Assembly: GCA_000092065.1 (NCBI GenBank)
Contig: CP000594.1
Source of the DNA: Ostreococcus lucimarinus
Lineage: Eukaryota
Strand: one strand, 5' to 3'
DNA length: 64,000 bases
The position numbers and the translations under genes are program-made. Positions 22,581 to 42,095 of the stretch are shown here, piece after piece (positions within the stretch are counted from its first letter, which is position 1; the number at the start of each line of letters is the position of its first letter). A model generated the notes under the pieces. The model was given only the letters and a program-made list of their open reading frames with translations, did not search any database and was not told the origin of the DNA.

Positions 22581-22739
22581 TTAGATTGTGATATAACCAA
22601 ACGACGACACGACGTTAAAGAACCGTAACAAACATCGCGAGTACATGTCGCGACCCGGGGCGACCACGACTTATGTTCCCTCGTATAGTTGCGTCTTCTC
22701 ATAGTGATTTGAAGTCGTAAAGTATGAAAAAAGTTGGTG

Positions 22740-22971: not shown

Positions 22972-23067
22972 ACGCGATAGACGTGCGCGCGCCGACGTGT
23001 CTTCGTGATGTCTTCGTCTAAATCAGCACTTCACTTTTTATCACAATAGTTGACGACGACGACGCGT

Positions 23068-25883: not shown

Positions 25884-25927
25884 ACATGTAGAAAATTTGT
25901 TGTTATACATATACTTGTACACTTTGA

Positions 25928-26548
25928 TTACTGTACGCGGGCCATCCAGTTTGCAGGCGGTGACCAGGTTGTCACCGCCGCATGGTGATCTCTCTGGTCT
26001 TTAGGTGGGCAAGGCCCCATAGCCAAAAACTTCAAAGAACTACTATATTCCAGCGTGTCCAGTGCTTCCACATTGCGAAGCTTTTCGTCATCTCTTTTTT
26101 CCACCAACACGCAGAATTCATTTACTTCCACTGCCCAGGCCTGGCCGGTGTTTCTTTCTATTTTGTACATGCCGGCTCTGCATTGGAGGCCCATATTGAA
26201 AAGCTTAGCCTCGTTGACTTGCTAACAAACTTTCTCAAATGCCTCTACCATTTTCGGCGGTGTGCAACCCACCGGGAAGCGTATAGCAGACCAGCATCGG
26301 ATCGTTTCACAAATGGGCCACCCCCCCATGTCCTTCAGTGCGCCGTTCAAGATATCTACAAGCTCGATCGCCACGGGTGAGTTTCTCGACCAATCTGGGT
26401 CACGGGCACGCATGTAGAGAGGCGACGGCGCATGGGTTTTCAGCAGGGGGGCGATGCGCCAGGACGTGAAGTCGTGTTTCCCCTGAACTTGAAGAACTGC
26501 GAGCAGGTCGGGGTGATAGAATGCTGGGGTGCTCAGGCAACAACCCAT
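25928..26548 (-). CDS. Hypothetical protein with an N-terminal MGCCLS motif (consensus for N-myristoylation plus palmitoylation). The reading frame is interrupted by one in-frame TAG at 26222-26224.
   Basis: ATG at 26548. A TATA box (TATATAAAG on the minus strand, 26687-26695) lies ~140 nt upstream. The same frame continues after the TAG into ORF 25928-26194. No family recognised. Confidence 0.35.
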
Positions 26549-26686
26549 GATGCGCTGTGTTTCTTTTCTCGGCCACGCGCGCGTTTTCTTTTGTCCGCCT
26601 CTCTCTCGCGCGCGCGTCGTCGAGTGATGCTGGTGCCGCTCGTGACGGATTTAAGGGCGTGAACACCCGCGTGTAAAAGCAGACAC

Positions 26687-26695
26687 TTTATATAG
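26687..26695 (-). promoter_or_regulatory. TATA box for the MGCCLS gene.
   Basis: TATATAAAG on the minus strand, about 140 nt upstream of the ATG at 26548. Confidence 0.4.
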
Positions 26696-26756
26696 CACTT
26701 TGGGAGGTTAAAAGGTGTCCCAAAGTCTCATACATTGGCCTATACTTTGGCAACAT

Positions 26757-26794
26757 CCCGCGCTTTGATTACTGTACAGTAATCAAAGCGCGGG
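26757..26794. promoter_or_regulatory. Perfect 38-bp palindrome cccgcgctttgattactgt|acagtaatcaaagcgcggg in the ~340-bp divergent promoter between the MGCCLS gene and the 2OG-oxygenase/DOMON gene.
   Basis: Exact reverse-complement symmetry. Its 15-nt core ctttgattactgtac recurs at 25922-25936, followed there by gcggg. Confidence 0.5.
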
Positions 26795-26889
26795 ATACCG
26801 TGGAATGGACTCGGAAAAACCTCTAGAAGTTCGGCGGCGCCATTCCGCGCGCGATCTCAGCGGGCGAGCGTGATCACCAACGTGGACCG

Positions 26890-28959
26890 ATGAGGCACCG
26901 ATCGTACCGTGTATGCAATGGACGCACGCTCGCACTCATCGCGCTCGTCGTGCTTGTCGCACGCACGCAGCGCGTCTTCGCTTCGCCGACCGACGAGCGA
27001 AGATTCTGGACGCCCACTGTCGTCGCCGTGGACGACGGCGTCGGTTCGAAGATCCGACGCATGGGAAACGATGTGGAGAAATCGAAGTCTTTCGTGTTTG
27101 AGAACACGGTAGCGGAATCGCTGACAAGAGATGGCGTCGTCGCGGTGCGAGTGCGAGGCTTGAACGAAGCAAAGACACAGAGCGCAAAACTCTTCATGGA
27201 TTGCGCGCGGGTTACGGATAATGTTGCAGTAGAAGAGTACGACGATGGATCCAGGCGCGTGACGCTCGCCACGACGACGAAGCAGAGGGGGAGTGGTTTC
27301 GGGGAACCCACGTCCAAAGCATGTAAGAAGTTCGAGGTCACGACGAAAATGCTTCGCGCGAAAGTTTCTGTGGCCGAACAAGCAATCACGGACGTGTTTC
27401 AGAGCAAGTTTTCAGATCTGAGTGAATTTGCGAACGGGGTACTGATGCAGGGAGAGAACGGCGAGACCTATAAAACTTTCTCGGAAGTATTGAAAGACTG
27501 CGAGCACCTTGAACATTTTCACGGCTACACGATTTCACCACAACAAAAATTGAAGAATAGTAAAGTGCGGACGATCGAAGAGCACACGGATCAAGGTCTA
27601 CTCATCGCATTCGTCCCGGCCATAATTGTCGATGCAGTGACGGGAAGGCGCGATAAGTTTTCCTCAACCGGCGATTTTTATATGACGCTTCCTGGGCATC
27701 GCAAGGTGCTTCTCCATTTTGACACGCTTCCAGACGATGTCGTTATTTTTATGCTGGGTCAAGCAATCGAGCAACAAATCACTCCCAAACTTGCAAACGG
27801 CCTTGAGCTTCACGCTGTACCACACGCAATGGATATGCCCAATCTTAAATCTAATCAGTTCAGATTTTGGTATGGGCGAATGTTCCTCCCACCTGAGAAT
27901 GCCTTGGACGAAAGCCATGGTCTCTCTTTTGGGACAGTGCGCGCTAACATCATCGAAGATTTCGCACGTGGGCTGAAGACATCCGTGGGATGTGGTCGTG
28001 AGCTCCTCTCCGTGGCAGGGAGCGGTTCATGCGCTAGCAACCAGATATGGTGCTGGATGCGATGCATGAATCACTCAGCGCCGGCGAGCAATCCACTCAC
28101 ATGCAGGACGGGTCATAGTGTCCAATGTTTGAGCCAAAGACTGGAAGTCTGGACGGATGCCGACAGTCATGGTGATTATAATCCTGGATGCACCGACGAG
28201 ACCAACGAGACAAAGCCCGTCACCGATCCACCGACCATCCCAGCTCGAGCAGCCTCTTGTACAGATGGAAACGCCTGGGAAACTTTTTTGAACCACTCCG
28301 AATATGAAAACAGCTTGGAGCTGTTACAAGATAAGTTATATTTACTCTGGACTGTTCAAAATGGTAAGTTAAAAGCCCGAGTTGCCTTCAATGGCAAGAT
28401 TGGTTGGTTTGCTCTCGGCATCAAAAACCTAGGAGGGAAACACAACGGGATGAACGGGGCGAACATCGTCATGGGCGTCCACGACCCTCATCCAATGGGT
28501 CACGACAGCAATTTCGGTTCTCCTTATGTTGGAAAGAGCAGTGCGAAACAATACAAAATCCACGATCATTCTTCTGCTTTTCGACATTGGAATGACACTG
28601 CTGACGTTGCCTCACCCTTCGTGAGTTCGACGACGTTCAATTCATGTTTCAGTTGTATGCGTTTCGAGACGGCCTCGATACGGGGCGAGGCTCTGAATCT
28701 CACCTCTGGTATTAATGAACTCATCTGGGCTGCTCATGATGGCACTTACCTCAAAGGCTACCATGAAGTACAAGGATTCGATCGGAGAGATGCACGCGGG
28801 CATCTCACGCTTGACCTGACGCGAAATTACGGTCGTGTAACGTGCGGCTTCTCAAGAGGCTGGGCTGCGGCGAGTCAAACATGTGCTTTTTCGGCAGCAA
28901 GCACTCCTTCAGCGATAGTTTCTATATCCATTGCTGTCATTGCAATCCTCGTTATGTGA
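26890..28959 (+). CDS. Secreted, membrane-anchored fusion of a 2-oxoglutarate/Fe(II)-dioxygenase-like domain and a DOMON domain. Has a signal peptide and a C-terminal hydrophobic tail (GPI or TM).
   Basis: Signal peptide MRHRSYRVCNGRTLALIALVVLVARTQRVFA. H-x-D...H motif (EEHTDQGLLIAF ... LELHAVPHA) typical of 2OG-Fe(II) oxygenases. C-terminal DOMON-like region (LYLLWTVQNGKLKARVAFNGKIGWFALGIKN...LIWAAHDG). C-terminal tail AIVSISIAVIAILVM. Confidence 0.6.
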   Translation: MRHRSYRVCNGRTLALIALVVLVARTQRVFASPTDERRFWTPTVVAVDDGVGSKIRRMGNDVEKSKSFVFENTVAESLTRDGVVAVRVRGLNEAKTQSAKLFMDCARVTDNVAVEEYDDGSRRVTLATTTKQRGSGFGEPTSKACKKFEVTTKMLRAKVSVAEQAITDVFQSKFSDLSEFANGVLMQGENGETYKTFSEVLKDCEHLEHFHGYTISPQQKLKNSKVRTIEEHTDQGLLIAFVPAIIVDAVTGRRDKFSSTGDFYMTLPGHRKVLLHFDTLPDDVVIFMLGQAIEQQITPKLANGLELHAVPHAMDMPNLKSNQFRFWYGRMFLPPENALDESHGLSFGTVRANIIEDFARGLKTSVGCGRELLSVAGSGSCASNQIWCWMRCMNHSAPASNPLTCRTGHSVQCLSQRLEVWTDADSHGDYNPGCTDETNETKPVTDPPTIPARAASCTDGNAWETFLNHSEYENSLELLQDKLYLLWTVQNGKLKARVAFNGKIGWFALGIKNLGGKHNGMNGANIVMGVHDPHPMGHDSNFGSPYVGKSSAKQYKIHDHSSAFRHWNDTADVASPFVSSTTFNSCFSCMRFETASIRGEALNLTSGINELIWAAHDGTYLKGYHEVQGFDRRDARGHLTLDLTRNYGRVTCGFSRGWAAASQTCAFSAASTPSAIVSISIAVIAILVM

Positions 28960-29210
28960 CGCGGAAGTTTGCATTCTTCACGATCTTTCAATCGACACCC
29001 GAAACAGTCTGAGCACGCACCGACAGTCACGCCGTTGTAGGTCCCGGCGTGATAACAGAACTCTTCGCTTGATGCGAGTGCGTTCGTGCTCGCGTACGCA
29101 CTCGAAACGGTGCAGTCGGCGTGAGAGAAACACACGTCGCCCGGGTCCGCGCGCGCGGTGTGCGCGACGGCGAGAGCGAAAACGAACGGCACGAGGAGGT
29201 TCTGAAACAT
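28875..29210 (-). CDS. Candidate small secreted cysteine-rich protein. Its 3' end overlaps the C-terminal coding sequence of the convergent oxygenase/DOMON gene by 85 nt.
   Basis: ATG at 29210. Signal peptide MFQNLLVPFVFALAVAHTARA, then 8 Cys in ~70 aa. Could be spurious. Confidence 0.25.
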   Translation of the reverse strand: MFQNLLVPFVFALAVAHTARADPGDVCFSHADCTVSSAYASTNALASSEEFCYHAGTYNGVTVGACSDCFGCRLKDREECKLPRHITRIAMTAMDIETIAEGVLAAEKAHV

Positions 29211-29345
29211 TTTTGGTGTGGGTTTAGCTCGCGAAAAAGTTTCAGCGAGGCTTGACGTGCGCCGCAAAGTGAGGTTCGGAGATCCGGAGATCCGCCGGTT
29301 GACGCCCCGCGGGGCGTGTGTGCCAGCCCGTAGGGTTTAGGGGAT

Positions 29346-29437
29346 CGGACATATGGAGCCTCACTATTAAGACACACTGTCATATATATTAATGGATTTA
29401 TGACAGTGTGTCTTAATAGTGAGGCTCCATATGTCCG
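29346..29437. repeat. Hairpin-forming inverted repeat: perfect 39-bp arms (29346-29384 and 29399-29437) around a 14-nt AT loop. Imperfect arm extensions reach ~29300-29466 (shared ccccgcggggcg).
   Basis: cggacatatggagcctcactattaagacacactgtcata and its exact reverse complement. Confidence 0.85.
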
Positions 29438-29703
29438 ACCGCGGGCACACATCCCCGCGGGGCGCCAGCAGGGTCAGGTCGCAATTTTGCGTTTTCCCGC
29501 TCAGCCTTCACTAGAAACGTGTCTAAACCGGCCACTTTTTAAATCTTGTTTTTTGCTAGGTTTTTACTGTCTCCGGGTCTCGGAGGAATCGCGTGGAGTG
29601 ACCGGTTATGGGTTTAGTGGTTGGAGGTCCTGTGAGGAACTTTCTCTCCGTCACTTTTTTTCCATTTTTGAAAAAAAAAACGTCACATGTAAACTTTATA
29701 AAT

Positions 29704-29729
29704 AAACCTATAACCTATAACCTATAACC
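29704..29729 (+). repeat. (AACCTAT)n heptamer microsatellite, about 3.7 copies.
   Basis: aacctataacctataacctataacct. Confidence 0.8.
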
Positions 29730-29862
29730 TTGAAGGTTGAAATTTCTTAAGACCCGGGGTCCGCTGTTAAGGGGGGTCGGAACGCACAGAGAAATCGGGC
29801 TCGTCGTCCTGTGTATCAGCAGTCCTGTAGTAGGAAGTCATTTTTTGCTGTTTTGGGCATCC

Positions 29863-30172
29863 CTTGCGTTCAGAGATTCCATTCTGAAGAAATCTTAAGC
29901 GAGGGCACCAAAAACTCAAGGTCTCAACGGTCGCACGCTTCAGACTAGTTACATCTTCTGTACCTCCAAGCAGCGAAGTGCTCCTGTGTGTCAGGTTTGT
30001 CTCACCAAACACCGAGATCTTCGAGAAGACGAACACGTTCCGCTGAGAGTTTGCACGTGCACCTGTCTTCCTTTGCCTGATTTGTGAGCCATCACCCCAG
30101 ATTTGAATGTGGCGTATCTTATCGCGACACTCTCGCTTAAGATCTCTTCAGAATGGAATCTCTGAACGCAAG
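29863..30172. mobile_element. MITE-like 310-bp element bounded by 41-bp terminal inverted repeats with one mismatch. It is nested inside an imperfect outer inverted-repeat pair (29793-29829 and 30313-30357).
   Basis: TIR-L cttgcgttcagagattccattctgaagaaatcttaagcgag at 29863-29903. TIR-R at 30132-30172 is its reverse complement (a/g mismatch). No internal ORF. The surrounding context is an AT-rich, low-complexity intergenic region. Confidence 0.5.
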
Positions 30173-30996
30173 CCGTGGATGTATTAAACTGTGAACGAGG
30201 CTAGTCATGGTTCGATTTTTTGGATTACAAGTGTAGGTCTACTTTTACGTTTCGTGGACTCCGCTTGAGTCGGCCGATGTCACCACGTCAGGTGTTTCGA
30301 GTGCACTAGAGACGTGACCGCCGATACACAGGACGTCGAGCTCGGCGTGCCTGATTTCACGACTCGGTGACCATGGTTTGAAACCGAAATGACCATCGGC
30401 TTCAGGCCCAGGCGCGGCCGCAATGCTACTTTAAACTTAATATATTTTTTTTGAAAAAAGAGTAGTAAGAGTAATAAAAATAAACTTTTTTTTTGAGTTG
30501 GGGCACCCCAACATGATAAAACCGCACATCGCGGCGAGCCATGCGCGACCATCAATTTGATGTCATGTCTAGTCAGGCTCTCGTGGTAAAAACGTAAGAT
30601 GTGCTTATTACAGCATATGCCAATTGCGCAGTAAATCTCGAAGGACGACATCAAACATATCACAGAGCGCGCGCTTCACACCGTACAACACCATCTAAGG
30701 TACTTTCGACCGACGTTTTAGGCAATTTTGACTCGCCGACTGGTCTTTTCCAGTTGTGACGTCAGATTCGATACGATACTGGGTTACGATGCGTTGAGTT
30801 GGACTGTAGAGGCCTGTACCCTTACATGCACATCTTCCATGGAGCGCTGGAGAAAAGGCATTGTTGCATAATTATTGTCAAAATATAGATATTTTAATTT
30901 GACGCCACCATTATTAACTTTAAAATCAAGCCAGATCGCGACGACACTGAACATTTGAATGTGTATTCACACTTGAGAGACACTGGTTTCGGCAAC

Positions 30997-31980
30997 TCAC
31001 GATCGAGTACCGAAGACAAAATTAGCGCACTTTTTTCTATCATCTGCAGAATGCGAGTTTGGCGCATTTTTTACTGCGTCGCAGTGTTTCTTAGCCGCTT
31101 TGCACTGTTTGGAGCAGACATGCGGACATGCTGCCACCCAGGTTGGGTTGGAACATAGATGGCGCCTGCCTTCCGGCTTGCCGCAGCCCCGCGGAATCGA
31201 TTCACAGGGAGCCATGTTGGGTAGATCAGGCGTTTCCCAGACGGTACCAGAGATACCATCGAAACCTGGGCACGTGTAATCGTCACTCAGAGTACAGCCA
31301 GTCGCCGCCGAGCCTTGACAAGATCTTTTCCAACCACCCAAACGCCTATGGCCCTTTGTACGCTTTTGGCAAGTACCCGTCGACACGTTGTACGCTTGTT
31401 TAGCTTCCTTAGTATCAAACGAGTGACACACGCATGAATCAATCAGTGGCAAAGCGCGGACCTGTACGGCCGGCTCATGCTCGCACGCCCAACACGAGTG
31501 TCCTCCAATACTGATCCCGAACCGCTGGCGCATCTCTGACGCGCAGACTTTCGCGCGTTCCTCCTCGTTGAGCTCCATTCCCGCGCAGGCACAAGCGCAC
31601 TGTGCACGCGACCACTCCACTCCATCTGTCGCACCAACATAACCTCTCATATCATTCTCCAGTTGGGCGTGTTGGTCGTGGCATATTCTCGCACACGCCG
31701 CGAATGTCTTCATAGATTCTGGTAGTCCGTAGTGCACCGCGGCCTGGGACACCGCGTCGTCATCCATGAGTTTCCACCCCGTGACCCCCGAGCTCACTGG
31801 CCGCCGCCGCCGCCCGAGCTCACTTGACGGTGCATCCAAATCACCGCCCGCATCGCCTGGGTCCGTCGCCACCGCCGTGAACGGCGCATCCGCGTCAACG
31901 CCCGCGGCGACGTTCAGCGCCGCGGCCCCCACGAACAGCGCCAACGTCAAAGGTGACACACATTGCCTTCGAAACCCCAT
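30997..31980 (-). CDS. Secreted cysteine-rich hypothetical protein, about 327 aa.
   Basis: ATG at 31980 (MGFRRQCVSPLTLALFVGAAALNVAAGVDA, a signal peptide). About 30 Cys in clustered patterns in the C-terminal half. The listed ORF starts further upstream at a non-ATG codon. Confidence 0.45.
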   Translation of the reverse strand: MGFRRQCVSPLTLALFVGAAALNVAAGVDADAPFTAVATDPGDAGGDLDAPSSELGRRRRPVSSGVTGWKLMDDDAVSQAAVHYGLPESMKTFAACARICHDQHAQLENDMRGYVGATDGVEWSRAQCACACAGMELNEEERAKVCASEMRQRFGISIGGHSCWACEHEPAVQVRALPLIDSCVCHSFDTKEAKQAYNVSTGTCQKRTKGHRRLGGWKRSCQGSAATGCTLSDDYTCPGFDGISGTVWETPDLPNMAPCESIPRGCGKPEGRRHLCSNPTWVAACPHVCSKQCKAAKKHCDAVKNAPNSHSADDRKKCANFVFGTRS

Positions 31981-32270
31981 CCCGCGCGCGCGATCTGCTT
32001 TTTCGTCCACGCGGCGTCCACTCGCGAACGCGCGGATACCGTTCGCTCTCTCAGCGCCCTCCACGTCCGATCGGTTCGGAAGTGACGCGCGCGCGCAGAA
32101 TAGTTTCGCGTCACAACGCAATTATTCATTCCCGTGTTGATTTTATTCTATTCCAGGGGGTATGGGTATAGAGTTTACAGTGCCTTCGTACGAGATATTT
32201 CCCAACACCCTTTAGTACCAAAACCTAATTGCGTATCTTCCCTCACTTTCCGACGTCACGCGCGCACGCG

Positions 32271-35200: not shown

Positions 35201-38200
35201 TGTCGGTGATGAAGGAAGTGAACTGCGCGGTTACCTCTGGTTGGATAGCGTTTCTGTGACACAGGAACGCTACTCTCCTCAACGAGTCGAGACGCCCTCT
35301 GCACAGCTCGGAGGTATGCAAGAAGGCGTTCACGCAATCACAGATATTGAATATTCGGTCATCAGCCGAAGCGATGGCTCTAAGTGCAAATCGCTGTCGG
35401 ACTGTGATATCATCGTGAGCCTGCGTCAGGTGAAGAGATGCATTGATGCGCAGTCGCGAGGCGATTTCAATATTTCGCCGATGGTGATGTCACAGACGAG
35501 TCCAAACCCGCAACCCGCGACGGTCTCGTGTGGTCGTCACTATGCAGCGAACTGCTCGACTTGTCCGTGGAAGGTGTCCGCGGAAGGTGTCCGTGGAAGG
35601 TGGATGGGCTGGAAATATTGCAATGGTGCGTGCGAATGGAGATGGCACGGGCGTATCAATGCAGGTGGCACGTGCGTGTCAAAGCCAGCTCCAACTCCTC
35701 CGGCAATAACAGTCACGGATCGTACTTCTTCAACACGTGGAACCGTCACTGCACAGATCACAGGGGGGACGATGACGCAATTTTCCACCTCTGCCAATTC
35801 ATCTGAAGTGCAGGACGCATTACGTCATGTCCTCGGAGCGCACGACGGAGGCTTCGTGGTGAGTCCAAGCATGGATTTGTTTGATGCGTGCGGTGTGAGC
35901 GCTCATCGCATGCGCGTTGCGCATGCGAGCGATCTCGAATCGATCCAAGCGCGGTACAAAGAAGTCGTCAATGGTGTGCCCCTGGGAATGCTACCGAAAT
36001 CTTCCCGAGGCCGCACTGCGGAAAATGACGCAGGTCTCCTTAATATAACTGTGAATGTCTCAGGCGGCCTCGCTGAGATAGTCGCGACAGACGAGTCGAG
36101 CGATTTCATCGGTATGGTGCCCCTGGACACGAGAACAGATCTCGATGTGCGCGCCTTGATTCGCGGTGGCGACGCCGTGTTGGCGACGGCTGTTGTGACG
36201 GATGGCGACACAGTCGTACCATGTTCTGTCTCACCTGACCGTATGTCTGCGACTGGCTTCAAACAAGTTCCGAACGGGCAGGCATTCGTTGGCGATGCTT
36301 CTTGCCACATCATTGTGCCACACGAGGAAGTTGCATCTGACGCGACCGTGCACGCTCCGACGGAGTTGAATCAGGATGGTTTTCCCTCACTCGGTGAGTC
36401 CGTGAGTCAATCGAGTCCGACAGACCAGAAACGTCGACGGGACGTCGAAACTATCCGTCGGCGCAGCATGTCAAACTCGCTAAAATTTCCTGGCCATGAT
36501 ACCTGGGCAAAACGAGATCTATCGATGAGTAGATCCGATCTTGGACGATTAACAGTCACAGTGGTTGGTTTTGGTGCGCGTGTGCACAACGGCGCCGCGC
36601 ACCGTAGAGCTGCGAATCACGCGCGGAAACTGTTGAAAACGGAACTCGTCGCGAAGGATGCAGGTCAGGGGAGTCTCAACAATACGAAAAGCAAGTATGA
36701 ATTTCCGGCGGGCGCGGGTCGATTCAGTGATCCATCGACGTGGGGTCCTCGGGGAGTGCCGGACCAAAACTCGACGGATATGCTCTTTATTCCTGCCGGT
36801 TTCAATCTTACTCTGGATGTCGCCGATACGTACTTCCGCGTGTGGGTGATTGAGGGGCACCTAAATTTCCAACGGGGCATGAACATCACGATGCAAGCAG
36901 AAATGATCGTCATCAACGGCGACGACGCACACTTTAGCATTGGGAGTGAAACACGTCCCTTTGAAGATCAGGCGAATATCATCATGCACGGTCACTGGCG
37001 ATCCCTCGGCTTGCCCAAATATGGGGTGAAGTGCATCTCACTGACGAGCGGACGATTAACATTCTATGGTCAGCACGTCACGCCTTGGATGGAACTGGCC
37101 ACTACGGCTTCAGCTAACGCAAACGTTATTTCCGTCAGAAGCAAGGAAGGCAAGACTCCAGATCTCGCCGGATGGAAACCGGGTGCGAGTATTGTGGTGA
37201 CGTCAACCTCTTACGGGGACAGGAGATGTCGGCAAAACCGTACAGACGACTGTCAACCCGAGGAGCGCGTTATTGAATCTGTCACTCCTAGAGGCAACTT
37301 TGCGGACATAACTCTCGATCGACCGTTGAAGTATGAACATTTGGGTGAATCCGTGAATGTGGCGGGAAGCCCCCGCGGGGCTACGATTGAGCGTCGTGCT
37401 GAAGTAATGCTTCTCACGAGAAATATCAACGTGCGCGGCACGACTGAACACAATGGGTATAAGCTCGTCGGCTTTGGCGCGCACACTATGATGATGTCTG
37501 GTCAAATGGTGTTGAAAAATGTTGAATTCGGCCCAAACGTCGGACAGGCCTTCCAACTGGGTCGGTATGCCATCCACTACCACACGCCCAATGAAAAGAT
37601 GTTCAAATATGGTTTGACAGCCTCAAATGACCCGAGGATGCAGGGCGCAGACCAGCGCTTGAGTCGTGTGGAGGGAGTCTCGGTCCACCAATCAAACAAC
37701 CGTGCGATCGCGGTGCATGGTTGTTATCGACTGAACATCATTAACAACGTCGCGTACAACATCTTGGGACATGGGATGTTCGTTGAAGATGGTGTGGAAA
37801 TGTGGAACCTCTTCAAGGACAACGTTGTTTCTCTAGTGCATCGCTCTTTCTCTCTTTTGAACACTGATCAAACACCTGCAGCGTTTTGGATATCGAACGC
37901 TAACAATTTCTTCATCGGTAATCGAGTGTCATCGAGTAATCATCATGGATATTGGTTTGACCCACCAGGAGGACCTACCGGACCGTCGTCGCGAACGCTC
38001 ACGGGGCCTTTGGAAATCCAAAAATTAAGCACTCGGAAGGTACCGCTCGGCCAGTTTGAAAATAACAGAGCCCACTCGAATGGCCACTCCGGACTTTGGA
38101 TTGATCAAATAAACACGGTCTTGCAGCAAGGCGGCAGGCTCAGAATGTACATGGTCGGTACCCACGTATGGAACAATGGAATCAACGGTTTCGGAATGAT

Positions 38201-41200
38201 TACCGGCGTTGGGCATCTACAGATTGTGAATACGTTTGCCATGGGCAACGGGATTGACATCATGTATATCAAGTCGACTGGTGCGACGTGGGCGATGCCG
38301 ACGAATGGTTGGTCCGGTAACTTGGTGTACAACGCCACCCTTCGCGGTGACCCGAAACGCAATACCCAGGCAATCGGCTGTCCGCACGGCGGATGGGTAA
38401 CATTTAACGATATCCTCATTAGTGGCTATCAAAGTAGGTTGCCCCCAATACACCACTGCGCTGTGTGTCCGGGTTTCAAAGGCGGCATGGAAGTTCGTTT
38501 CATGAATATGAAATTCGTCGACAGTGATACAAGGCGGCTCCGCGGTGGTTCAACATCTCGACCGCGCGTATTCTGGAACGGGTACAACTCCAACCTTTTG
38601 CTCGACGTGGATGGGACCCTGAGTGGATCGCCAGGTCCACGATGGGCGCATTCAGTCAAGGGCGCCAGTGATGATCCCAGGAACCGGCCGACGGGTCATT
38701 TTCCGCCAGAACACTGCACCCTCAATGATCACATCGGAGGTGTTGTTTGCGACGCCAACACTGTGTCGTTGCGAGAGGTGCAGTGGCGCCGTATCAAGCC
38801 CATGACCCTTATACCCATGGCGATGCAGACAGCACCTGATCAAAATGCAGGGCAAGTGAACTTTTATCATTACGACCATATCGAGCGACGTTTCAATTGG
38901 CGTACGACATTGGTTATGGTTAAAAGTCCGAACGCGAAGCCATACATCCATAACTTTACGTTTAAGTTTAAAACATGGCAAATTGATGACCCGGACGCTT
39001 GGTACATGGAGGTCCGTGAGCTTCAGCCCAATGAATGGGCTATAATGCGATTCCCCACACTCCGCAATCCGTGGCGTTGGAACTTGAATTCAAGAATACC
39101 GACGGTCACATTGAATAACTACAATCAAAGTGATTATAGTTTCAATGAGAGCAAGGCCATCACCACCACGAGCAACGAATGGCTGAGTTGGAAAAATCAC
39201 AAGTTCGGCGACCACACATACCTACCCGTTGTGGAGACAAGGGATGTTAATGTAAAGCCAGATCCAGGGCTGCTCGATATCATGATATCTGGCAAGCGCG
39301 AACAAGGATGGACACAATCGTACGCCCTCGGTGCCAACTATGATGGCGCGCGTGAAGATATGCCCGTCTGCACCACTTCATGCGGAAGCTCGGCAAAGTC
39401 AACATGTGGCATGAAACGCTACAACTGCAGACCGGGCGACAAGAAACGATGTTTGCCGATGGAAAAGCCTGCAAACTGCTTCGACAATCGACCTATACCC
39501 GAGGTAGATCCCGAGCCTAAAACTTTTTCCTGGTGCGACTCAAACGAAGTTTGGTCTCCGCCGGCATTCGGGGATGACGTCATGATCAAGGCTGGTTGGA
39601 CGGTCATCTTAGATGAAACCTGTCTGGTGACCAACATAACTAGACACGTGGATTTATATGGGTCCCTGTTGCTTCGTGATCCAGGCGCTGGTAAAACCAT
39701 CAAGTTCCGAGCGCAGACCATCCACGTCGCGGCTGGGATTGGATACCTCGAAGCTGGTGACCAGGATGATCCGATATCGAATGGCGACGTTCGTATCGAG
39801 CTTTATGGGAACAGATTTTCTAACGCTCGAATGGGCTACGGTATGGAGACAAAGTACATCGCCGTTCTCGGACACCTCAGCCTCGTCGGAAAGGCGAGCG
39901 TGGAGCAAACGTGGTCGACGCTTAGAAGCGATGCGCCCGCGGGAAGCAGTACAATTGAAACGACAGCCTGTGGCGGTTGGAATACTGGCGACACGCTCAT
40001 GATTGGTGGCGCTATGCACAATTGGACCGGGATCAAGCATGCTTGGTTTTTGAGCGCGGAGCGCTGTGATATTTCCTCCATAGCAGTTGCGAGCGAAGGT
40101 TGCGTCATACGGTGTACTTCCAGCTTCAACTACACGCACTCAGGCCCGGCCCAAAAGCACGAGGTCAGTTTTGGTGGAATGCCAGTGACTCTCATGCATA
40201 GGCGCTCTCCAGGTGGGCGCGTGCAGGTAGTTGGCATGGAAGACAAAAACAAGGCACTGGCAGAGCAGCACTATGGTGCTGTTATTACTATCCTGAAACC
40301 GAAAAAGAAAGGCTATGACGCAAAATTGGCTAAGAGATTCAAGATAGAACTCAAGACGCCCGAGCGCATGCAAGCGGCAACTGAAAGCATGAAACATGAT
40401 CCCCCGCCTGAATGCCACCGCAGACAAGGTTCGGCTGTGATCGTCAATGTCAACTTTGCGCATTGCGGTCAGCGGCACTCTAGTCGCGCGTGTGTTTCTT
40501 TTGCCGCCGGTATTGGCGCTGAGTATCGAGCTACGTTCGCAGAAACGACATCGATGGCACTCGTTGCGAACAACACATTTGCGGACGCCTACAATTTTGC
40601 CGTGAGCGCAGCAGGAGATGGAATTATTATAGAGAATAACGCCATCGCACAAACCTATCACGGTGGATTCGAGGTCTCTGGTGCGAACAACACAATGTCT
40701 AATAACGCAGCTGTTCGATTATTCGACGATGTTAGTGATTACTTTCACGACATTGGGTCGGTTGGTTTCAAGTTGTCGGGATCAGGGAAATGGTATACTA
40801 ACGTCGTCGCCTCCGTGCAGTACACTGGGTTTAAAATTCCTGGATATCCGTGCGAAATGATGACTCCAGACGTGGAGGATGAGGGTTTAGACGTTCGCGC
40901 TGTGACCACCGTTCCCGCCGAACCTACAATGCGTGACCTTCGCGCGTATGGTGGCATGGTAGGCGTGAATCTGCGGGGCGGGCGTACTCGGATGGTCACA
41001 CGTGAACCGGTGGAGGCCTACGCGCCGCTCGAGTGTCGCCAATGGAGCGACTTCGAGATTCGTTCAATGGTTTGGTACGGCGTAACCACGTTTGGTCAGG
41101 GAAAAACGTCTATTGTGTTGAAAAACTTTAATATTTGGGACACCGGACTTGGTTTCGCGCTGTGGATGGTCAACGGTGGCTCAGCCGCAGGTTCGAGCAG

Positions 41201-42095
41201 CGAGCGAGGGCATTTCGCAGAAATCAGTGACACGACGATAATCGGTTCTGCAAGTCGATGTAGAAACGACGGCATTGGGTTTCCCGCGTTTTACTTAACG
41301 GCAGAACCGTACCGGCCGGATCAAGGAGTGAAAACGCCATCGCGCTTTGGTGGAACGACGCTAAGAAACATAAGGTTTCGCGATTTCGGCGCATGTGAAA
41401 AGAAAGGCGTTCGTCAAGTTCGTCAAAAGAATTACGCATTGGTGAACGCCATGAACCGTGGGCGATACGCGTGGGTTTACTACGACAACGCGAACCCCGT
41501 GCGATCTTCTGGCTTGAGCTTTAAGGGTGTACCATTCGAAAACAGGTTACTCATGATCCATCCAAGCTGGGGTCGAATAGGCAATGGGAAATGGGGCTGT
41601 GCCCAAATGTACTGCGACGGACATCGCAACACGTTTGTGATGGATGAGGACGGTTCGCTGCTCGGTGATAACGCCGCATTCGGGACCATCTTGCCCGAAA
41701 ACGAGATTGGTTGGTTCAAGAAACTGGCCTATATCGATCCGCTCAGCCGTGACATTCTTGAAGATTTGGTTCCATTCACACACCAGTGGCTGCCCAACGG
41801 TACCAAACTGACGCCCATGCGAGGGAAGCTCTACGACGAGCCAGGCCATCTCAAAATGGGCTGTCGAAAGGAGGCTTCATGGCAGGCGTGGCTCTGTCCC
41901 GAACACAGGCACAGGCAAATAATCCACGAAAGTTTGGACGGCGATCACACGAAGAGGCGCATCTCCCCAACTTCTGTTCTCACAGAGCTACCATCTCAGA
42001 GCAAGCGTTTCATGTCTCTGTACACTGGGCCTGCGAAATACGGAGGAAACTCCTCGACCGAGGGCAATAACATCCAAGCGCTCGATCGAGGCTAG
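32271..42095 (+). CDS. Giant PKHD1/fibrocystin-TMEM2/CEMIP-like cell-surface protein, about 3274 aa, single exon. N-terminal signal anchor, IPT/TIG domains, two G8 domains and two blocks of PbH1 parallel-beta-helix repeats.
   Basis: IPT/TIG-like segments (~32895-33330 and 33420-33600). G8 domain 1 at ~36700-37080 (W-G-P-RGVP...PFEDQANIIMHG...YGVKCISLTSGRLTFYG) and G8 domain 2 at ~39520-39900 (FSWCDSNEVWSPPAFGDDVMIKAGWTVILDE...). PbH1-like repeats at ~37440-38350 and ~40500-41300 (NNVAYNILGHGMFVEDG..., NNTFADAYNFAVSAAGDGIIIENNAIAQTYHGGFEVSGANNTMSNNAAV). First ATG at 32271. The listed start at 32229 is TTG. Confidence 0.75.
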   Translation: MTSATPKRRRARRFLYAFGGPTLLFNLMRVFAMSGLVATITMSTAAGAAHGGGASMDEGPAQMHYMPDRFRSLAGGGWLTISSRDVHKSLMPMPGMRGGGEGANESAVSGSAMKDEVKIDLAHGDPDGERSCDLVHYKSSSNELVCSPRAVDCCLDGLTAQELASVSDGCPSVRPELNVEVNGQRLTWGSAGRNGRDTLTDESLKVSHGQTPTIVAVEPAEVRPGELITVYGRTCFGDVWKKDEDDGSSLRDDPDALRDLFSVEASAREDPRQEIGLEKSLYKVLIGDLPCEVRDPLTNRYYRSERGDGPYTAHRQTECGPVNGWFQCRVPQDIDSGLHLLHYETYTRGNAVILSEALRWNASDASKGYVLSVVDDKSEDEDPPRVYNITQLSKDESKQRLLVEGASLDAPNIVVELDGERCGGKKVVSRSGIEVECSGSAGASSQYHYGPPAWLREDWVFKDKNNKFVGGKAWSNALHVLKQRGERYNPLADEVMDALSSALATNGIVRGYKIEKVQQYLTSPSVGSPYVEATSGMKAAHAGLIRHRRIRNAVFERVSGVITAKANGRMRVAIANAAGNNMVLRVRHVSDNLNVFKPWLLVSKFCGTRYSRQNIYRYGFSQWFSVRGNEKYYMEFLMNLDPRYLHNFGGFDVKMEFSYDAGNPAGSIGQLTHTTTPHVPKRAHGGDYVVRFSGASKTAIRFAHNATSSRSNFEWKLFSGGKTIEFNTKNWLHAREHVRKVRDALRWANCTALPEDSKMWDADSTHSSHPFDVENRWLMVRDTQTFKEPTTDWNFIWQRRMGGFRGASIDWSTSYCSTHSQKFDLSSLPPGRVITPSSHFDVPASSRATTNKFLNFAYKVTPGTRATLLLRLKYRSGNRDISTTCAVLLTHEQATGNVKNFDHPACVDLRSVFKDDGEWHFISFDWRTALAGGEYAPSYLGEAMFPHKVQVQLDGIGVGAQRFLGKCPNKQRLAEMYVGDEGSELRGYLWLDSVSVTQERYSPQRVETPSAQLGGMQEGVHAITDIEYSVISRSDGSKCKSLSDCDIIVSLRQVKRCIDAQSRGDFNISPMVMSQTSPNPQPATVSCGRHYAANCSTCPWKVSAEGVRGRWMGWKYCNGACEWRWHGRINAGGTCVSKPAPTPPAITVTDRTSSTRGTVTAQITGGTMTQFSTSANSSEVQDALRHVLGAHDGGFVVSPSMDLFDACGVSAHRMRVAHASDLESIQARYKEVVNGVPLGMLPKSSRGRTAENDAGLLNITVNVSGGLAEIVATDESSDFIGMVPLDTRTDLDVRALIRGGDAVLATAVVTDGDTVVPCSVSPDRMSATGFKQVPNGQAFVGDASCHIIVPHEEVASDATVHAPTELNQDGFPSLGESVSQSSPTDQKRRRDVETIRRRSMSNSLKFPGHDTWAKRDLSMSRSDLGRLTVTVVGFGARVHNGAAHRRAANHARKLLKTELVAKDAGQGSLNNTKSKYEFPAGAGRFSDPSTWGPRGVPDQNSTDMLFIPAGFNLTLDVADTYFRVWVIEGHLNFQRGMNITMQAEMIVINGDDAHFSIGSETRPFEDQANIIMHGHWRSLGLPKYGVKCISLTSGRLTFYGQHVTPWMELATTASANANVISVRSKEGKTPDLAGWKPGASIVVTSTSYGDRRCRQNRTDDCQPEERVIESVTPRGNFADITLDRPLKYEHLGESVNVAGSPRGATIERRAEVMLLTRNINVRGTTEHNGYKLVGFGAHTMMMSGQMVLKNVEFGPNVGQAFQLGRYAIHYHTPNEKMFKYGLTASNDPRMQGADQRLSRVEGVSVHQSNNRAIAVHGCYRLNIINNVAYNILGHGMFVEDGVEMWNLFKDNVVSLVHRSFSLLNTDQTPAAFWISNANNFFIGNRVSSSNHHGYWFDPPGGPTGPSSRTLTGPLEIQKLSTRKVPLGQFENNRAHSNGHSGLWIDQINTVLQQGGRLRMYMVGTHVWNNGINGFGMITGVGHLQIVNTFAMGNGIDIMYIKSTGATWAMPTNGWSGNLVYNATLRGDPKRNTQAIGCPHGGWVTFNDILISGYQSRLPPIHHCAVCPGFKGGMEVRFMNMKFVDSDTRRLRGGSTSRPRVFWNGYNSNLLLDVDGTLSGSPGPRWAHSVKGASDDPRNRPTGHFPPEHCTLNDHIGGVVCDANTVSLREVQWRRIKPMTLIPMAMQTAPDQNAGQVNFYHYDHIERRFNWRTTLVMVKSPNAKPYIHNFTFKFKTWQIDDPDAWYMEVRELQPNEWAIMRFPTLRNPWRWNLNSRIPTVTLNNYNQSDYSFNESKAITTTSNEWLSWKNHKFGDHTYLPVVETRDVNVKPDPGLLDIMISGKREQGWTQSYALGANYDGAREDMPVCTTSCGSSAKSTCGMKRYNCRPGDKKRCLPMEKPANCFDNRPIPEVDPEPKTFSWCDSNEVWSPPAFGDDVMIKAGWTVILDETCLVTNITRHVDLYGSLLLRDPGAGKTIKFRAQTIHVAAGIGYLEAGDQDDPISNGDVRIELYGNRFSNARMGYGMETKYIAVLGHLSLVGKASVEQTWSTLRSDAPAGSSTIETTACGGWNTGDTLMIGGAMHNWTGIKHAWFLSAERCDISSIAVASEGCVIRCTSSFNYTHSGPAQKHEVSFGGMPVTLMHRRSPGGRVQVVGMEDKNKALAEQHYGAVITILKPKKKGYDAKLAKRFKIELKTPERMQAATESMKHDPPPECHRRQGSAVIVNVNFAHCGQRHSSRACVSFAAGIGAEYRATFAETTSMALVANNTFADAYNFAVSAAGDGIIIENNAIAQTYHGGFEVSGANNTMSNNAAVRLFDDVSDYFHDIGSVGFKLSGSGKWYTNVVASVQYTGFKIPGYPCEMMTPDVEDEGLDVRAVTTVPAEPTMRDLRAYGGMVGVNLRGGRTRMVTREPVEAYAPLECRQWSDFEIRSMVWYGVTTFGQGKTSIVLKNFNIWDTGLGFALWMVNGGSAAGSSSERGHFAEISDTTIIGSASRCRNDGIGFPAFYLTAEPYRPDQGVKTPSRFGGTTLRNIRFRDFGACEKKGVRQVRQKNYALVNAMNRGRYAWVYYDNANPVRSSGLSFKGVPFENRLLMIHPSWGRIGNGKWGCAQMYCDGHRNTFVMDEDGSLLGDNAAFGTILPENEIGWFKKLAYIDPLSRDILEDLVPFTHQWLPNGTKLTPMRGKLYDEPGHLKMGCRKEASWQAWLCPEHRHRQIIHESLDGDHTKRRISPTSVLTELPSQSKRFMSLYTGPAKYGGNSSTEGNNIQALDRG

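What the first reader, a model, noticed from the sequence alone, without database searches (positions are those of the whole stretch)
25884..42095. AT-richer island of about 16 kb, sharply bounded at gene ends, holding surface and secreted protein genes plus repeat debris
Base composition drops abruptly right after the stop codon at 25883 and recovers exactly at 42095. Inside the island lie the MGCCLS ORF, the secreted 2OG-oxygenase/DOMON protein, two Cys-rich secreted proteins, a hairpin element, nested MITE-like inverted repeats, AT-rich low-complexity DNA and the PKHD1-like giant gene. Flanking genes are strongly GC3-biased housekeeping genes. In Mamiellophyceae, low-GC compartments (outlier chromosomes or regions) have been linked to surface-glycan genes, hypervariability and virus resistance. 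This looks like a small-scale island of that kind, or a horizontally acquired or duplicated block.
Basis: partly seen in the sequence, partly recalled or inferred. Interest (0 to 1): 0.6.

Follow-up and report, generated by a model that had tools for sequence, protein, structure and literature searches.

The report
Low-GC surface-gene cluster cut by duplication
The AT-richer block is a real, native cluster of surface-protein genes in the picoalga Ostreococcus lucimarinus, but its razor-sharp right edge is the joint of a roughly 143-kb tandem duplication private to the reference strain, which cuts two genes in half.

Summary
The window comes from Ostreococcus lucimarinus CCE9901, on a 708,927-bp chromosome. 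The low-GC block is real. Island genes have GC3 of 0.54-0.63, against 0.68-0.92 for about 40 ordinary genes. It is not unique, though: the housekeeping VPS13 gene at 37-11901 is even lower (GC3 0.51), and RRP12 falls from 0.90 to 0.56 along its length.

The left edge near 25.9 kb is natural and is also seen in wild metagenome contigs. The right edge is not a gene end. Wild contigs follow the G8 giant gene only to 42051. Right-flank relatives match only from 42081. The 29 nt in between match neither.

Both convergent genes are truncated. G8 loses 684 aa, including its membrane anchor. The amidohydrolase loses 175 aa.

Every window gene for which a GenBank accession was retrieved, on either side of the joint, has two identical accessions. 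Their order, two confirmed number predictions and a 280-kb wild contig all fit a direct tandem duplication of about 143 kb.

In wild genomes the low-GC cluster spans at least 35 kb. It includes a length-variable DUF285 giant gene. The reference lacks this gene at a perfect 42-nt palindrome.

Foreign origin is not supported.

The parts
24992..25883 (+). Left-flank gene. It is one ORF of 283-301 aa in wild contigs, with GC3 of about 0.76. It is the last ordinary high-GC3 gene before the cluster. In the reference it is split into two ORFs.
   Evidence: ORFs 24992-25630 and 25575-25883 lie in different frames. The window has an extra C at 25610 compared with five wild contigs.
25884..26754 (.). 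AT-rich start of the cluster, holding small ORFs. One is the MGCCLS ORF at 26222-26548 on the minus strand, called as 148 aa in wild contigs. This is the segment most diverged from wild contigs, at 95.9-98.7% identity.
26755..26796 (.). Perfect 42-nt palindrome (ATCCCGCGCTTTGATTACTGT | ACAGTAATCAAAGCGCGGGAT). It is the empty site of a block of about 8.7-9.3 kb that holds the DUF285/PARCEL giant gene and a MITE-like element copy. The block's right border was seen in six wild contigs and its left border in nine, twelve different contigs in all. The 8 nt TTACTGTA flanks the block on both sides in wild contigs.
   Evidence: DUF285 is identified.
26890..28959 (+). 689-aa membrane or secreted protein. 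The N-terminal half has a 2OG/Fe(II)-oxygenase fold, followed by a Cys-rich linker and a DOMON-like beta-sandwich. It has hydrophobic N- and C-termini. GC3 is 0.54. It equals GenBank ABO99547.1 and ABO99582.1.
   Evidence: One search gives the accessions. One search shows invariant H232-x-D234...H312...R325. One search gives Pfam DOMON at E = 0.025. The structure model has pLDDT 63, and Foldseek matches ethylene-forming enzyme and GA2ox at E of about 1e-10. The nearest homologue outside the species is 40% identical.
28875..29267 (-). Small Cys-rich ORF with a signal-peptide-like N-terminus. It is called as 111 aa in wild contigs. GC3 is 0.56.
29268..30996 (.). AT-rich intergenic repeat region with GC 0.47. 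It holds a hairpin element at 29345-29438 (43-nt arms, 98% complementary) and nested inverted repeats at 29863-29903/30132-30172 and 29796-29824/30316-30344. It also holds a 420-nt element at 29717-30134. Related copies occur only elsewhere in the wild version of the cluster.
30997..32064 (-). Cys-rich 355-aa secreted protein that is effectively an orphan. GC3 is 0.60.
   Evidence: A search of 1.84 billion representative proteins found only 4 hits at E <= 1e-3. Three are fragments at 64-91% identity, presumably of the same or a closely related gene (the library carries no organism names).
32229..42051 (+). Giant surface-protein gene with two G8 domains and a CEMIP-type beta-helix, truncated after codon 3274. 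The wild gene is 3958 aa by ORF. It continues with Pro-rich repeats, a coiled coil and a C-terminal transmembrane helix. GC3 is 0.67 in the first 200 codons, then 0.53-0.59.
42052..42080 (.). 29-nt filler (CCTCGACCGAGGGCAATAACATCCAAGCG) at the duplication joint. It matches neither parental sequence. Its first 12 nt resemble the amidohydrolase sequence just right of the joint.
42081..43349 (-). Amidohydrolase truncated after codon 423, against 594-598 aa in wild genomes. It marks the start of duplication copy 2. The resulting 453-aa ORF (41988-43349) is ABO99727.1 and is on record only in the reference genome.
37..11901 (+). VPS13 giant housekeeping gene, used as a comparator. It is native and conserved yet has the lowest GC3 in the window (0.51). 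Its CpG observed/expected ratio is 1.37, against 1.23 for the island and 1.69 for the flanks.

Best explanation
The block is the left 16 kb of a native low-GC3 gene cluster on an ordinary O. lucimarinus chromosome. In wild genomes the cluster spans at least 35 kb.

The cluster encodes giant, Cys-rich or orphan membrane and secreted proteins:
- a DUF285/PARCEL giant;
- a 2OG-oxygenase/DOMON protein;
- two Cys-rich proteins;
- a G8/CEMIP beta-helix giant with a C-terminal anchor;
- at least three further genes downstream (two of them with a hydrophobic C-terminal segment).

Two things have altered it in the reference strain CCE9901.

(a) Shown: a direct tandem duplication of about 143 kb. One end of the unit lies inside the G8 gene (42051) and the other inside the amidohydrolase gene (42081). 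The window spans the novel joint between the end of copy 1 and the start of copy 2. Low-GC gene body therefore abuts high-GC coding sequence with no transition, and both genes are truncated.

Inferred: the 29-nt filler, partly templated from the flank, points to end-joining or a replicative template switch (TMEJ or MMBIR type). It does not point to homologous recombination.

(b) Shown: the 9-kb DUF285 block is absent at a 42-nt perfect palindrome.

The low GC itself is inferred to be the genome's default composition wherever GC-raising forces are weak. Those forces are codon-usage selection in expressed genes and GC enrichment near gene 5' ends. They are weak in the bodies of very long genes and in weakly codon-biased, lineage-specific genes. 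Foreign origin is not needed.

A regional effect, such as reduced recombination in a structurally polymorphic cluster, may add to this for the shorter genes.
For: Species and reference: exact protein matches to CCE9901 on a 708,927-bp record.

Junction:
- Wild contigs L016-L018 are 99.95-99.98% identical to the window up to 42051 and then continue the G8 ORF to 3958 aa.
- L003 (99.8% identical) and L001 (91-96%) match only from 42081 and carry an intact amidohydrolase of 598 or 585 aa.
- The 29 nt between match nothing.

Duplication:
- GenBank accession pairs exist for genes on both sides of the joint. These are SAM synthetase 99518/99553, cofilin 99542/99578, RRS1 99545/99580, the DOMON protein 99547/99582, NMNAT 99700/99731 and PAP 99724/99758.
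- Their order is 518<542<545<547<553<578<580<582.
- Two predictions made from the model were then confirmed. The truncated amidohydrolase is ABO99727. The genes downstream of full-length G8 are single-copy ABO99583 and ABO99584, directly after DOMON copy 2.
- Wild contig Ga0494219_00176 places NMNAT 103.9 kb upstream of cofilin in the predicted orientation. That gives a unit of 9,975 + 103,908 + 28,990, or about 142.9 kb.
- The truncated amidohydrolase is on record on 1 contig only, the reference.

Composition:
- GC3 gradients run 0.90 to 0.56 in RRP12, plateau at 0.55-0.58 in G8 and sit at 0.47-0.54 in VPS13.
- Wild cluster genes have GC3 of 0.54-0.68, against 0.68-0.92 for ordinary genes.
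- The wild low-GC tract continues at least 9 kb past the truncation point and through the DUF285 gene.
- CpG observed/expected is 1.23-1.37 in the island and VPS13, against 1.69 in the flanks.
- Codon bias rises with expression in O. tauri, and its optimal codons are GC-rich (PMC3673656).
Against: - The duplication is inferred from accession numbering, one wild contig and junction anatomy. I could not read the second copy or any read depth.
- The junction could come from a chimeric clone in the 2007 Sanger assembly.
- Gene length does not explain the short cluster genes. The DOMON protein has GC3 of 0.66, 0.53 and 0.51 in successive 200-codon bins. PAP has 0.74, 0.72 and 0.73. A regional or gene-class effect therefore remains unexplained.
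- No expression, methylation or recombination data were available.
- Wild contigs were retrieved by exact-protein look-up, which favours haplotypes close to the reference.
- L012 shows a different neighbour (Zip) next to PAP, and the model does not explain this.
Confidence: 0.75

Rival explanations
1. The joint is an assembly artefact. A chimeric clone or a finishing error in the reference created both the G8|amidohydrolase joint and the apparent 143-kb duplication. The living strain would then have the wild arrangement.
For: The truncated amidohydrolase ORF and the joint are on record only in the NCBI reference. The two copies encode identical proteins. The reference also carries a 1-nt frameshift at 25610 that could be a sequencing error. 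An O. tauri reference had spurious duplicated regions that were later removed (bioRxiv 10.64898/2026.07.10.737489).
Against: Assemblers collapse identical repeats rather than inventing them. A 29-nt filler that is partly templated from the flank is typical of a biological end-joining event, not of a k-mer or overlap misjoin. CCE9901 is already reported to carry recent large duplications: chromosome 21 was formed from duplicated regions of chromosomes 9 and 13 (PMC2367439, citing Palenik 2007).
Confidence: 0.15
2. The cluster is a true miniature outlier compartment, like the small or big outlier chromosome regions of Mamiellales. Low GC would then be a regional property tied to suppressed recombination, special chromatin and hypervariability, with a role in cell-surface variation and virus resistance.
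For: - GC of 0.525 is close to the 53% of the O. lucimarinus small outlier chromosome.
- At least 8 contiguous low-GC3 genes include short ones.
- The genes are orphan or fast-evolving.
- Dispersed repeats are specific to the cluster and include a palindromic motif family.
- DUF285 shows presence/absence and length polymorphism.
- Two reference-specific structural breakpoints lie within 16 kb.
Against: - No glycosyltransferase, methyltransferase, transposon or PKS content was found.
- The part from the DOMON gene to G8 is 99.85-99.98% identical across wild contigs, so it is not sequence-hypervariable. The sampling is biased, however.
- VPS13 and the 3' part of RRP12 reach the same composition with no such context.
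- One of two duplication breakpoints falling in a tract that covers about 5% of the chromosome is not significant.
Confidence: 0.3
3. The island was acquired horizontally from a virus or a bacterium. Its foreign composition would explain the low GC.
For: DUF285/PARCEL genes have been proposed to spread horizontally (PMC2996958). The DUF285 block is flanked by an 8-nt direct duplication at a palindromic site. Several cluster genes have few or no homologues.
Against: - The native VPS13 gene shares the same GC3 and dinucleotide signature.
- Homologues of the DOMON protein (31-40% identity) come mostly from unlabelled metagenome contigs; the two labelled ones are eukaryotic, one from Pyramimonas.
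- In a GC-rich metagenomic contig from an unidentified organism, the DOMON homologue is likewise the lowest-GC3 gene among ordinary neighbours (0.69 against 0.80-0.84).
- No close relatives were found in viral contigs.
- No integrase, transposase or tRNA lies at the borders.
- The cluster is fixed at 99.9% identity in wild populations.
Confidence: 0.04

Closest known systems
Low-GC outlier regions of Mamiellales (the big outlier region on chromosome 2 and the small outlier chromosome 18 in O. lucimarinus)
   Same: GC is lower by a similar amount (0.525, against 53% for the small outlier chromosome; PMC3491373). The cluster holds lineage-specific genes. It is structurally variable between strains and has its own repeats.
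   Different: It is a tract of at least 35 kb inside an ordinary chromosome, between housekeeping genes. It has none of the glycosyltransferase, methyltransferase, PKS, transposon or small-intron content that characterises those regions. Much of its low GC is explained by two giant genes.
Recent large segmental duplications in strain CCE9901 (chromosome 21, formed from duplicated regions of chromosomes 9 and 13; Palenik 2007 as cited in PMC2367439)
   Same: Both are very recent duplications of around 100 kb in the same strain, and the copies encode identical proteins.
   Different: This one is a direct tandem duplication within a single chromosome. Its joint truncates two genes. I found no description of it in the held literature, and the original genome paper is not held.
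Structural rearrangements of Ostreococcus outlier chromosomes linked to virus resistance (PMC5082852; bioRxiv 10.1101/2025.09.17.676765)
   Same: Both involve large duplications and deletions that arise within strains and affect genes for surface-related proteins.
   Different: Those events lie on the small outlier chromosome and were tied experimentally to resistance. Here the chromosome is a standard one and no phenotype is known.
PARCEL/DUF285 repeat proteins (Roeske et al. 2010, PMC2996958)
   Same: The wild-only giant gene scores 1123 bits against DUF285. Its length varies in steps of about 20-25 aa, which fits the 25-residue repeat.
   Different: The gene is absent from the window itself. 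Mobility of the block is only suggested, by an 8-nt flanking duplication at a palindrome.
Fibrocystin (PKHD1) and CEMIP/TMEM2-type G8 plus beta-helix surface proteins
   Same: It has two G8 domains and a CEMIP-type right-handed beta-helix. The wild form has a single C-terminal membrane anchor.
   Different: No IPT/TIG array was detected. The nearest homologue found is only 47% identical. It shares domains with these proteins but is not an orthologue.

Membership tests
Mamiellales low-GC outlier region (big or small outlier type) | GC several percentage points below the rest of the genome, over a contiguous tract | tested here: met
   GC is 0.525, against 0.615 and 0.648 for the flanks. The wild tract spans at least 35 kb. 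VPS13 at 0.487 shows that the criterion is not specific.
Mamiellales low-GC outlier region (big or small outlier type) | Location on the designated outlier chromosomes (2 or 18 in O. lucimarinus), covering 150 kb or more | tested here: not met
   The tract lies on a 708,927-bp record among housekeeping genes: RRP12, RRS1, PAP, NAD kinase and SAM synthetase. The small outlier chromosome is 149 kb. I did not determine the chromosome number.
Mamiellales low-GC outlier region (big or small outlier type) | Characteristic gene content: glycosyltransferases and methyltransferases (small outlier type), or transposons, small introns and PKS genes (big outlier type) | tested here: not met
   Pfam finds only G8, CEMIP beta-helix and DUF285.
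Mamiellales low-GC outlier region (big or small outlier type) | Hypomethylation, raised expression and spatial insulation | not testable with these tools
   This needs methylome, RNA-seq and Hi-C data (bioRxiv 10.1101/2025.04.21.649811).
Recent tandem segmental duplication junction | The two sides of the joint are each colinear with a different intact wild-type locus | tested here: met
   The left side matches L016-L018 up to 42051. The right side matches L003 and L001 from 42081.
Recent tandem segmental duplication junction | Genes on both sides occur twice, in the same order, in the same record | tested here: met
   Six accession pairs have constant offsets. The predictions ABO99727 and ABO99583/99584 were confirmed. 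This is inferred from numbering, not from the sequence of copy 2.
Recent tandem segmental duplication junction | In the unduplicated state, the right-flank genes lie upstream of the left-flank genes in the same orientation | tested here: met
   On wild contig Ga0494219_00176, NMNAT is at 112,419-113,726 and cofilin at 8,964-9,818, on opposite strands to the window.
Recent tandem segmental duplication junction | Twofold read depth over the unit and reads spanning the joint in the strain | not testable with these tools
   No read data were available.
Horizontally acquired genomic island | Nearest homologues lie outside the host lineage, or mobility genes sit at the borders | tested here: not met
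   The DOMON homologues that carry an organism label are eukaryotic, one from Pyramimonas. No viral relatives were found. No integrase or transposase was found.
2OG/Fe(II)-dependent oxygenase (689-aa protein, N-terminal half) | Double-stranded beta-helix fold with an HxD...H iron triad and a basic residue that binds 2OG | tested here: met
   H232-x-D234, H312 and R325 are invariant in 15 homologues. Foldseek matches ethylene-forming enzyme and GA2ox at E of about 1e-10 with target TM-scores of 0.5-0.6. The model is only of moderate quality (pLDDT 63). No Pfam or PDB sequence hit was found.
DOMON domain (689-aa protein, C-terminal half) | Match to Pfam PF03351 above its threshold | tested here: inconclusive
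   The score is 15.2 bits against a cut-off of 32.7, and 4 of 15 homologues match weakly. UniRef names the protein as DOMON domain-containing.
MITE or DNA-transposon remnants (29.3-30.4 kb) | Terminal inverted repeats, target-site duplication and multiple dispersed copies | tested here: inconclusive
   Inverted repeats of 41 nt (98%) and 29 nt (86%) are present. There are 2-4 related copies, all inside the wild cluster. I did not examine target-site duplications, and no whole genome was available for counting copies.

The most novel reading that the evidence does not exclude
The cluster is a hotspot of structural change lying outside the known outlier chromosomes.

A family of palindromic elements is dispersed through its intergenic regions. 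The elements have the form ATCCCG...TTACTGTACAGTAA...CGGGAT, and some sit beside short TTTAGGG repeats. On this reading they mediate gain and loss of giant surface-protein cassettes. The 9-kb DUF285/PARCEL block sits exactly at the centre of one such palindrome, with an 8-nt flanking duplication.

The elements would also predispose the region to breakage, such as the duplication breakpoint in G8. That would give O. lucimarinus a second, chromosome-internal locus of cell-surface variation relevant to virus adsorption.
Probability: 0.15. Interest if true: 0.75.

Novelty: new member of a known kind. Interest (0 to 1): 0.45.

Why it matters
O. lucimarinus CCE9901 is a standard reference for marine metagenomics and for the biology of compact genomes. 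A tandem duplication of about 143 kb that is private to the reference has three consequences:
- About 67 genes are present twice, which affects read recruitment and copy-number estimates.
- Two annotated products are truncation artefacts of the joint.
- A compositional "island boundary" in the reference is not a feature of the species.

Independently, the wild version of the locus is a cluster of at least 35 kb on an ordinary chromosome. It holds giant, orphan and Cys-rich surface-protein genes, including a DUF285 gene that is length-polymorphic and shows presence/absence variation. That makes it a concrete candidate for strain-level surface variation outside the outlier chromosomes, which have so far received most of the attention in work on virus resistance.

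The window also shows plainly that in this genome GC3 falls from about 0.9 to 0.55 along long genes. Low GC alone is therefore not evidence of an outlier region or of foreign DNA.

Tried and rejected
- The homologue search with the full G8 protein timed out. The search with its last 1200 aa returned a single hit at 47% identity and not the full-length wild protein. I therefore reached the downstream context through a metagenome scan instead.
- An exact look-up of the truncated amidohydrolase among assembled contigs found nothing. It later turned out to exist only as an NCBI protein.
- Literature searches for a described tandem duplication on this chromosome found nothing. The only related report is the chromosome 21 duplication. 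The genome paper (PMC1863510) is not held.
- I rejected an insertion model, in which the island is inserted into the amidohydrolase gene. The missing 3' part of that gene and its natural neighbours (a SET-like gene, SLX9 and HARE-HTH) are nowhere in the window.
- I considered an inversion or reciprocal translocation between G8 and the amidohydrolase and rejected it. Genes on both sides are present in two copies in a tandem order.
- I rejected a pure gene-length explanation for the whole island, because the short cluster genes are low in GC3 at every position.
- A profile search of the 689-aa family against PDB sequences gave nothing usable.
- Synteny of the DOMON homologue in more distant relatives (L020, L021) is not conserved, so the age of the cluster could not be dated.
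- I looked for terminal inverted repeats at the ends of the 9-kb DUF285 block and saw none.

Full report
**Source and genes.** Exact protein look-ups place the window in Ostreococcus lucimarinus CCE9901, on a record of 708,927 bp. Window GC is 0.58. The main genes are:

| Coordinates | Strand | Gene |
|---|---|---|
| 37-11901 | + | VPS13 |
| 13061-13915 | + | cofilin |
| 14003-18439 | - | RRP12 |
| 21546-22580 | + | RRS1 |
| 23068-24864 | - | poly(A) polymerase (PAP) |
| 24992-25883 | + | unknown gene |
| 25884-42095 | | the flagged block |
| 41988-43349 | - | amidohydrolase |
| 43480-45918 | - | NAD kinase |
| to 64 kb | | ordinary genes: epimerase, chloride channel, NMNAT, EMC6, WD48, SAM synthetase |

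- GC is 0.525 for 25884-42051, against 0.615 and 0.648 for the flanks.
- GC3 of the five island ORFs is 0.54-0.63. Nineteen flanking ORFs average 0.78 with a minimum of 0.68 (p = 2e-5). A further 24 ordinary genes in related loci score 0.71-0.92.
- First correction: VPS13, a conserved housekeeping gene, is lower still (GC 0.487, GC3 0.51).
- Second correction: the left edge is sharp in GC3 but not in total GC. Unsupervised segmentation of total GC cuts at 10,990, 22,570, 42,040 and 45,140.
- Third correction: the right edge is not a gene end, as shown below.

**GC3 falls along long genes.** This window shows a strong 5'-to-3' decline.
- RRP12 falls from 0.90 to 0.56 over 1478 codons.
- G8 starts at 0.67 and then plateaus at 0.53-0.59.
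- VPS13 sits at 0.47-0.54.
- The 9.8-kb G8 body, about 60% of the island, therefore has just the composition expected for DNA far from a gene start.
- The short island genes are different. The 689-aa gene reads 0.66, 0.53 and 0.51 per 200 codons, while PAP reads 0.74, 0.72 and 0.73.
- Dinucleotide signature groups the island with VPS13. CpG observed/expected is 1.23 and 1.37, against 1.69 in the flanks. TpG+CpA is 1.08-1.16, against 0.71-0.76.

**The right edge is a rearrangement joint.**
- A same-species contig (L003, 99.8% identical) and a sister-lineage contig (L001, 91-96%) match the window only from 42081 rightwards. In both, the amidohydrolase is an intact ORF of 598 or 585 aa, followed by a SET-like gene, SLX9 and HARE-HTH.
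- Three same-species metagenome contigs (L016-L018, 99.95-99.98%) match the window up to 42051. They then continue the G8 ORF to 3958 aa, through Pro-rich repeats, a coiled coil and a C-terminal transmembrane helix.
- The 29 nt at 42052-42080 match neither sequence. Their first 12 nt resemble the amidohydrolase sequence just beyond the joint.
- G8 therefore keeps codons 1-3274, runs through the filler into antisense amidohydrolase and stops by chance at 42095.
- The amidohydrolase keeps codons 1-423 and reads 30 junk codons.
- Two convergent genes are each cut at the 3' end. This explains why composition "recovers exactly" there.

**What kind of rearrangement?** Every window gene for which a GenBank accession was retrieved has two identical CCE9901 accessions, and this holds on both sides of the joint.

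| Gene | Strand | Accessions (ABO...) |
|---|---|---|
| SAM synthetase | + | 99518 / 99553 |
| cofilin | + | 99542 / 99578 |
| RRS1 | + | 99545 / 99580 |
| DOMON protein | + | 99547 / 99582 |
| NMNAT | - | 99700 / 99731 |
| PAP | - | 99724 / 99758 |

- The plus-strand order reads SAM synthetase ... cofilin, RRS1, DOMON, then the same series again. That is the order expected for a direct tandem duplication with the window across the joint.
- From this model I predicted that the truncated amidohydrolase would be numbered about 726-727. I also predicted that the genes downstream of full-length G8 would be single-copy and numbered right after DOMON copy 2.
- One search returned ABO99727.1 for the 453-aa truncated ORF, which is on record only in the reference. 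It returned ABO99583.1 and ABO99584.1, both single, for the 643- and 490-aa genes.
- Independent support comes from wild JGI contig Ga0494219_00176 (280,269 nt). It carries NMNAT at 112,419-113,726 and cofilin at 8,964-9,818. NMNAT is thus 103.9 kb upstream of cofilin in window orientation, as predicted.
- The unit is therefore about 9,975 + 103,908 + 28,990 = 142.9 kb, with 35 plus-strand and 32 minus-strand annotated genes.
- The filler favours end-joining or a template switch over homologous recombination (inference).
- CCE9901 is already known for recent large duplications: chromosome 21 formed from parts of chromosomes 9 and 13 (PMC2367439).
- I found no description of this tandem duplication. 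The genome paper is not held.

**The natural form of the cluster.** Twelve same-species contigs (L004-L015) are colinear with the window, apart from small intergenic indels. Each ends or diverges from it at the same point: six match the window rightward from 26769 and nine match it leftward up to 26776.
- Between those two points they carry an extra 8.7-9.3 kb.
- The extra block holds a DUF285/PARCEL giant gene of up to 2740 aa, scoring 1123 bits.
- It also holds a second copy, 88-89% identical, of the 420-nt element at window 29717-30134.
- In 38 cluster members the DUF285 protein ranges from 2100 to 2740 aa, often differing by 20-25 aa. This fits the 25-residue PARCEL repeat (PMC2996958). 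Metagenome assembly of repeats may add to the apparent variation.
- Wild low GC continues through DUF285 (GC3 0.61) and for at least 9 kb past the G8 truncation point. The three genes there have GC3 of 0.68, 0.63 and 0.54.
- The native cluster therefore spans at least 35 kb. Its natural right end was not reached.

**Gene content.**
- The 689-aa protein has invariant H232-x-D234...H312...R325. Its modelled N-terminal half matches 2OG/Fe(II) oxygenases. It has a weak DOMON match. Its closest relatives outside the species are only 31-40% identical, and the two that carry an organism or transcriptome label are eukaryotic, one from Pyramimonas.
- The 355-aa Cys-rich protein is effectively an orphan, with 4 hits among 1.84 billion representatives.
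- The last 1200 aa of the window's G8 copy found one relative, at 47% identity.
- No relatives were found in viral contigs.
- In a GC-rich metagenomic contig from an unidentified organism (L020, GC 0.646), the DOMON homologue sits among unrelated ordinary genes. It is again the lowest-GC3 gene there (0.69 against 0.80-0.84). In another relative it is GC3-rich (0.88). Synteny is not conserved at that distance.

**Mechanism of the low GC (inference).** Codon bias rises with expression in O. tauri, and its optimal codons are GC-rich (PMC3673656). Together with the 5'-to-3' gradient, this makes a GC3 of about 0.5-0.6 the default wherever GC-raising forces are weak. That applies to long gene bodies and to weakly expressed, lineage-specific genes.
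- A regional contribution cannot be excluded. One candidate is reduced recombination in a structurally polymorphic cluster.
- Such a contribution would make this a small relative of the outlier regions. Its GC equals the 53% of the small outlier chromosome.
- Foreign origin is not needed, and the evidence does not support it.

**Verdict.** The compositional block is real and native, and it is interesting as a polymorphic surface-gene cluster. Its striking right boundary is the joint of a reference-specific tandem duplication, not a property of an island.

**Caveats.**
- I did not read copy 2 directly.
- The duplication rests on accession order, two confirmed predictions, one wild contig and the anatomy of the junction.
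- Wild contigs were retrieved by exact-protein match and so favour haplotypes close to the reference.

Noticed in passing
window 26755-26796; L005 785-960 and 9800-9935: A perfect 42-nt palindrome marks the empty site of the 9-kb DUF285 block. In wild contigs the block splits this palindrome and is flanked by an 8-nt direct duplication (TTACTGTA). This could be an insertion with a target-site duplication, or a microhomology deletion that restored the palindrome. No terminal inverted repeats were seen at the ends of the block.
   Followed up: partly
L005 9843-9893; L017/L018 15150-15270; window 29330-29440: A family of palindromic motifs (TTACTGTACAGTAA, within ATCCCG...CGGGAT contexts) recurs in intergenic regions of the cluster. 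So does a conserved module of about 60 nt (TCGGACATATGGAGCCTCACT...ATATATTAATGGATTTATG). Some copies sit beside short telomere-like repeats (TTTAGGGTTTAGGGTTTTGGG). In all sequence examined, the 14-nt motif occurs only inside the cluster. These may be telo-box-type promoter modules, MITEs or recombination sites.
   Followed up: partly
window 25610: The reference has an extra C compared with five wild contigs. It frameshifts the 283-301-aa gene at 24992-25883 into two ORFs. This is either a sequencing error or a strain-specific pseudogene. An in-frame repeat polymorphism lies at 25252-25295.
   Followed up: yes
window 22723-22990: The PAP-RRS1 intergenic region holds what looks like a permuted tRNA gene: a T-arm and 3' half, a 28-nt spacer, then a 5' half with a D-arm. 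It gives a sub-threshold Rfam YrlA hit of 32.8 bits, and ARAGORN does not call it. The region also has a tandem duplicate of about 112 nt covering the 5'-half segment. The window lacks a segment of about 400 nt that wild contigs carry here. Some wild haplotypes (L013, L014) have (TTTAGGG)3 here.
   Followed up: partly
L012 11620-21222: One metagenome contig joins the 3' flank of PAP to a different set of genes (Zip, an LHC protein, DNA_pol_A_exo1, a choline transporter and TPT) instead of RRS1. This is either another structural variant or a chimeric assembly. The 280-kb wild contig also ends at about this point.
   Followed up: partly
window 37-11901 and 14003-18439: VPS13 has the lowest GC3 in the window (0.51). 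RRP12 shows a 5'-to-3' GC3 gradient from 0.90 to 0.56. GC peaks of 0.70-0.76 sit at gene 5' ends and divergent promoters throughout the window.
   Followed up: yes
window 32229-42051: The G8 giant gene appears to be unannotated in GenBank for both copies. No plus-strand accession lies between the DOMON protein (ABO99582) and the next downstream gene (ABO99583). The numbers 99548-99552 are all accounted for by other plus-strand genes. This is inferred from numbering only.
   Followed up: partly
whole window: CpG is over-represented everywhere, with observed/expected of 1.2-1.9. It correlates strongly with GC (Spearman 0.79 over 1-kb windows).
   Followed up: no
window 21019-21098 and 56090-56171: There is a C/D-box snoRNA (snoR117, 43.4 bits, just above the threshold of 42) on the minus strand upstream of RRS1. 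A tRNA-Ser (AGA) also lies on the minus strand.
   Followed up: no
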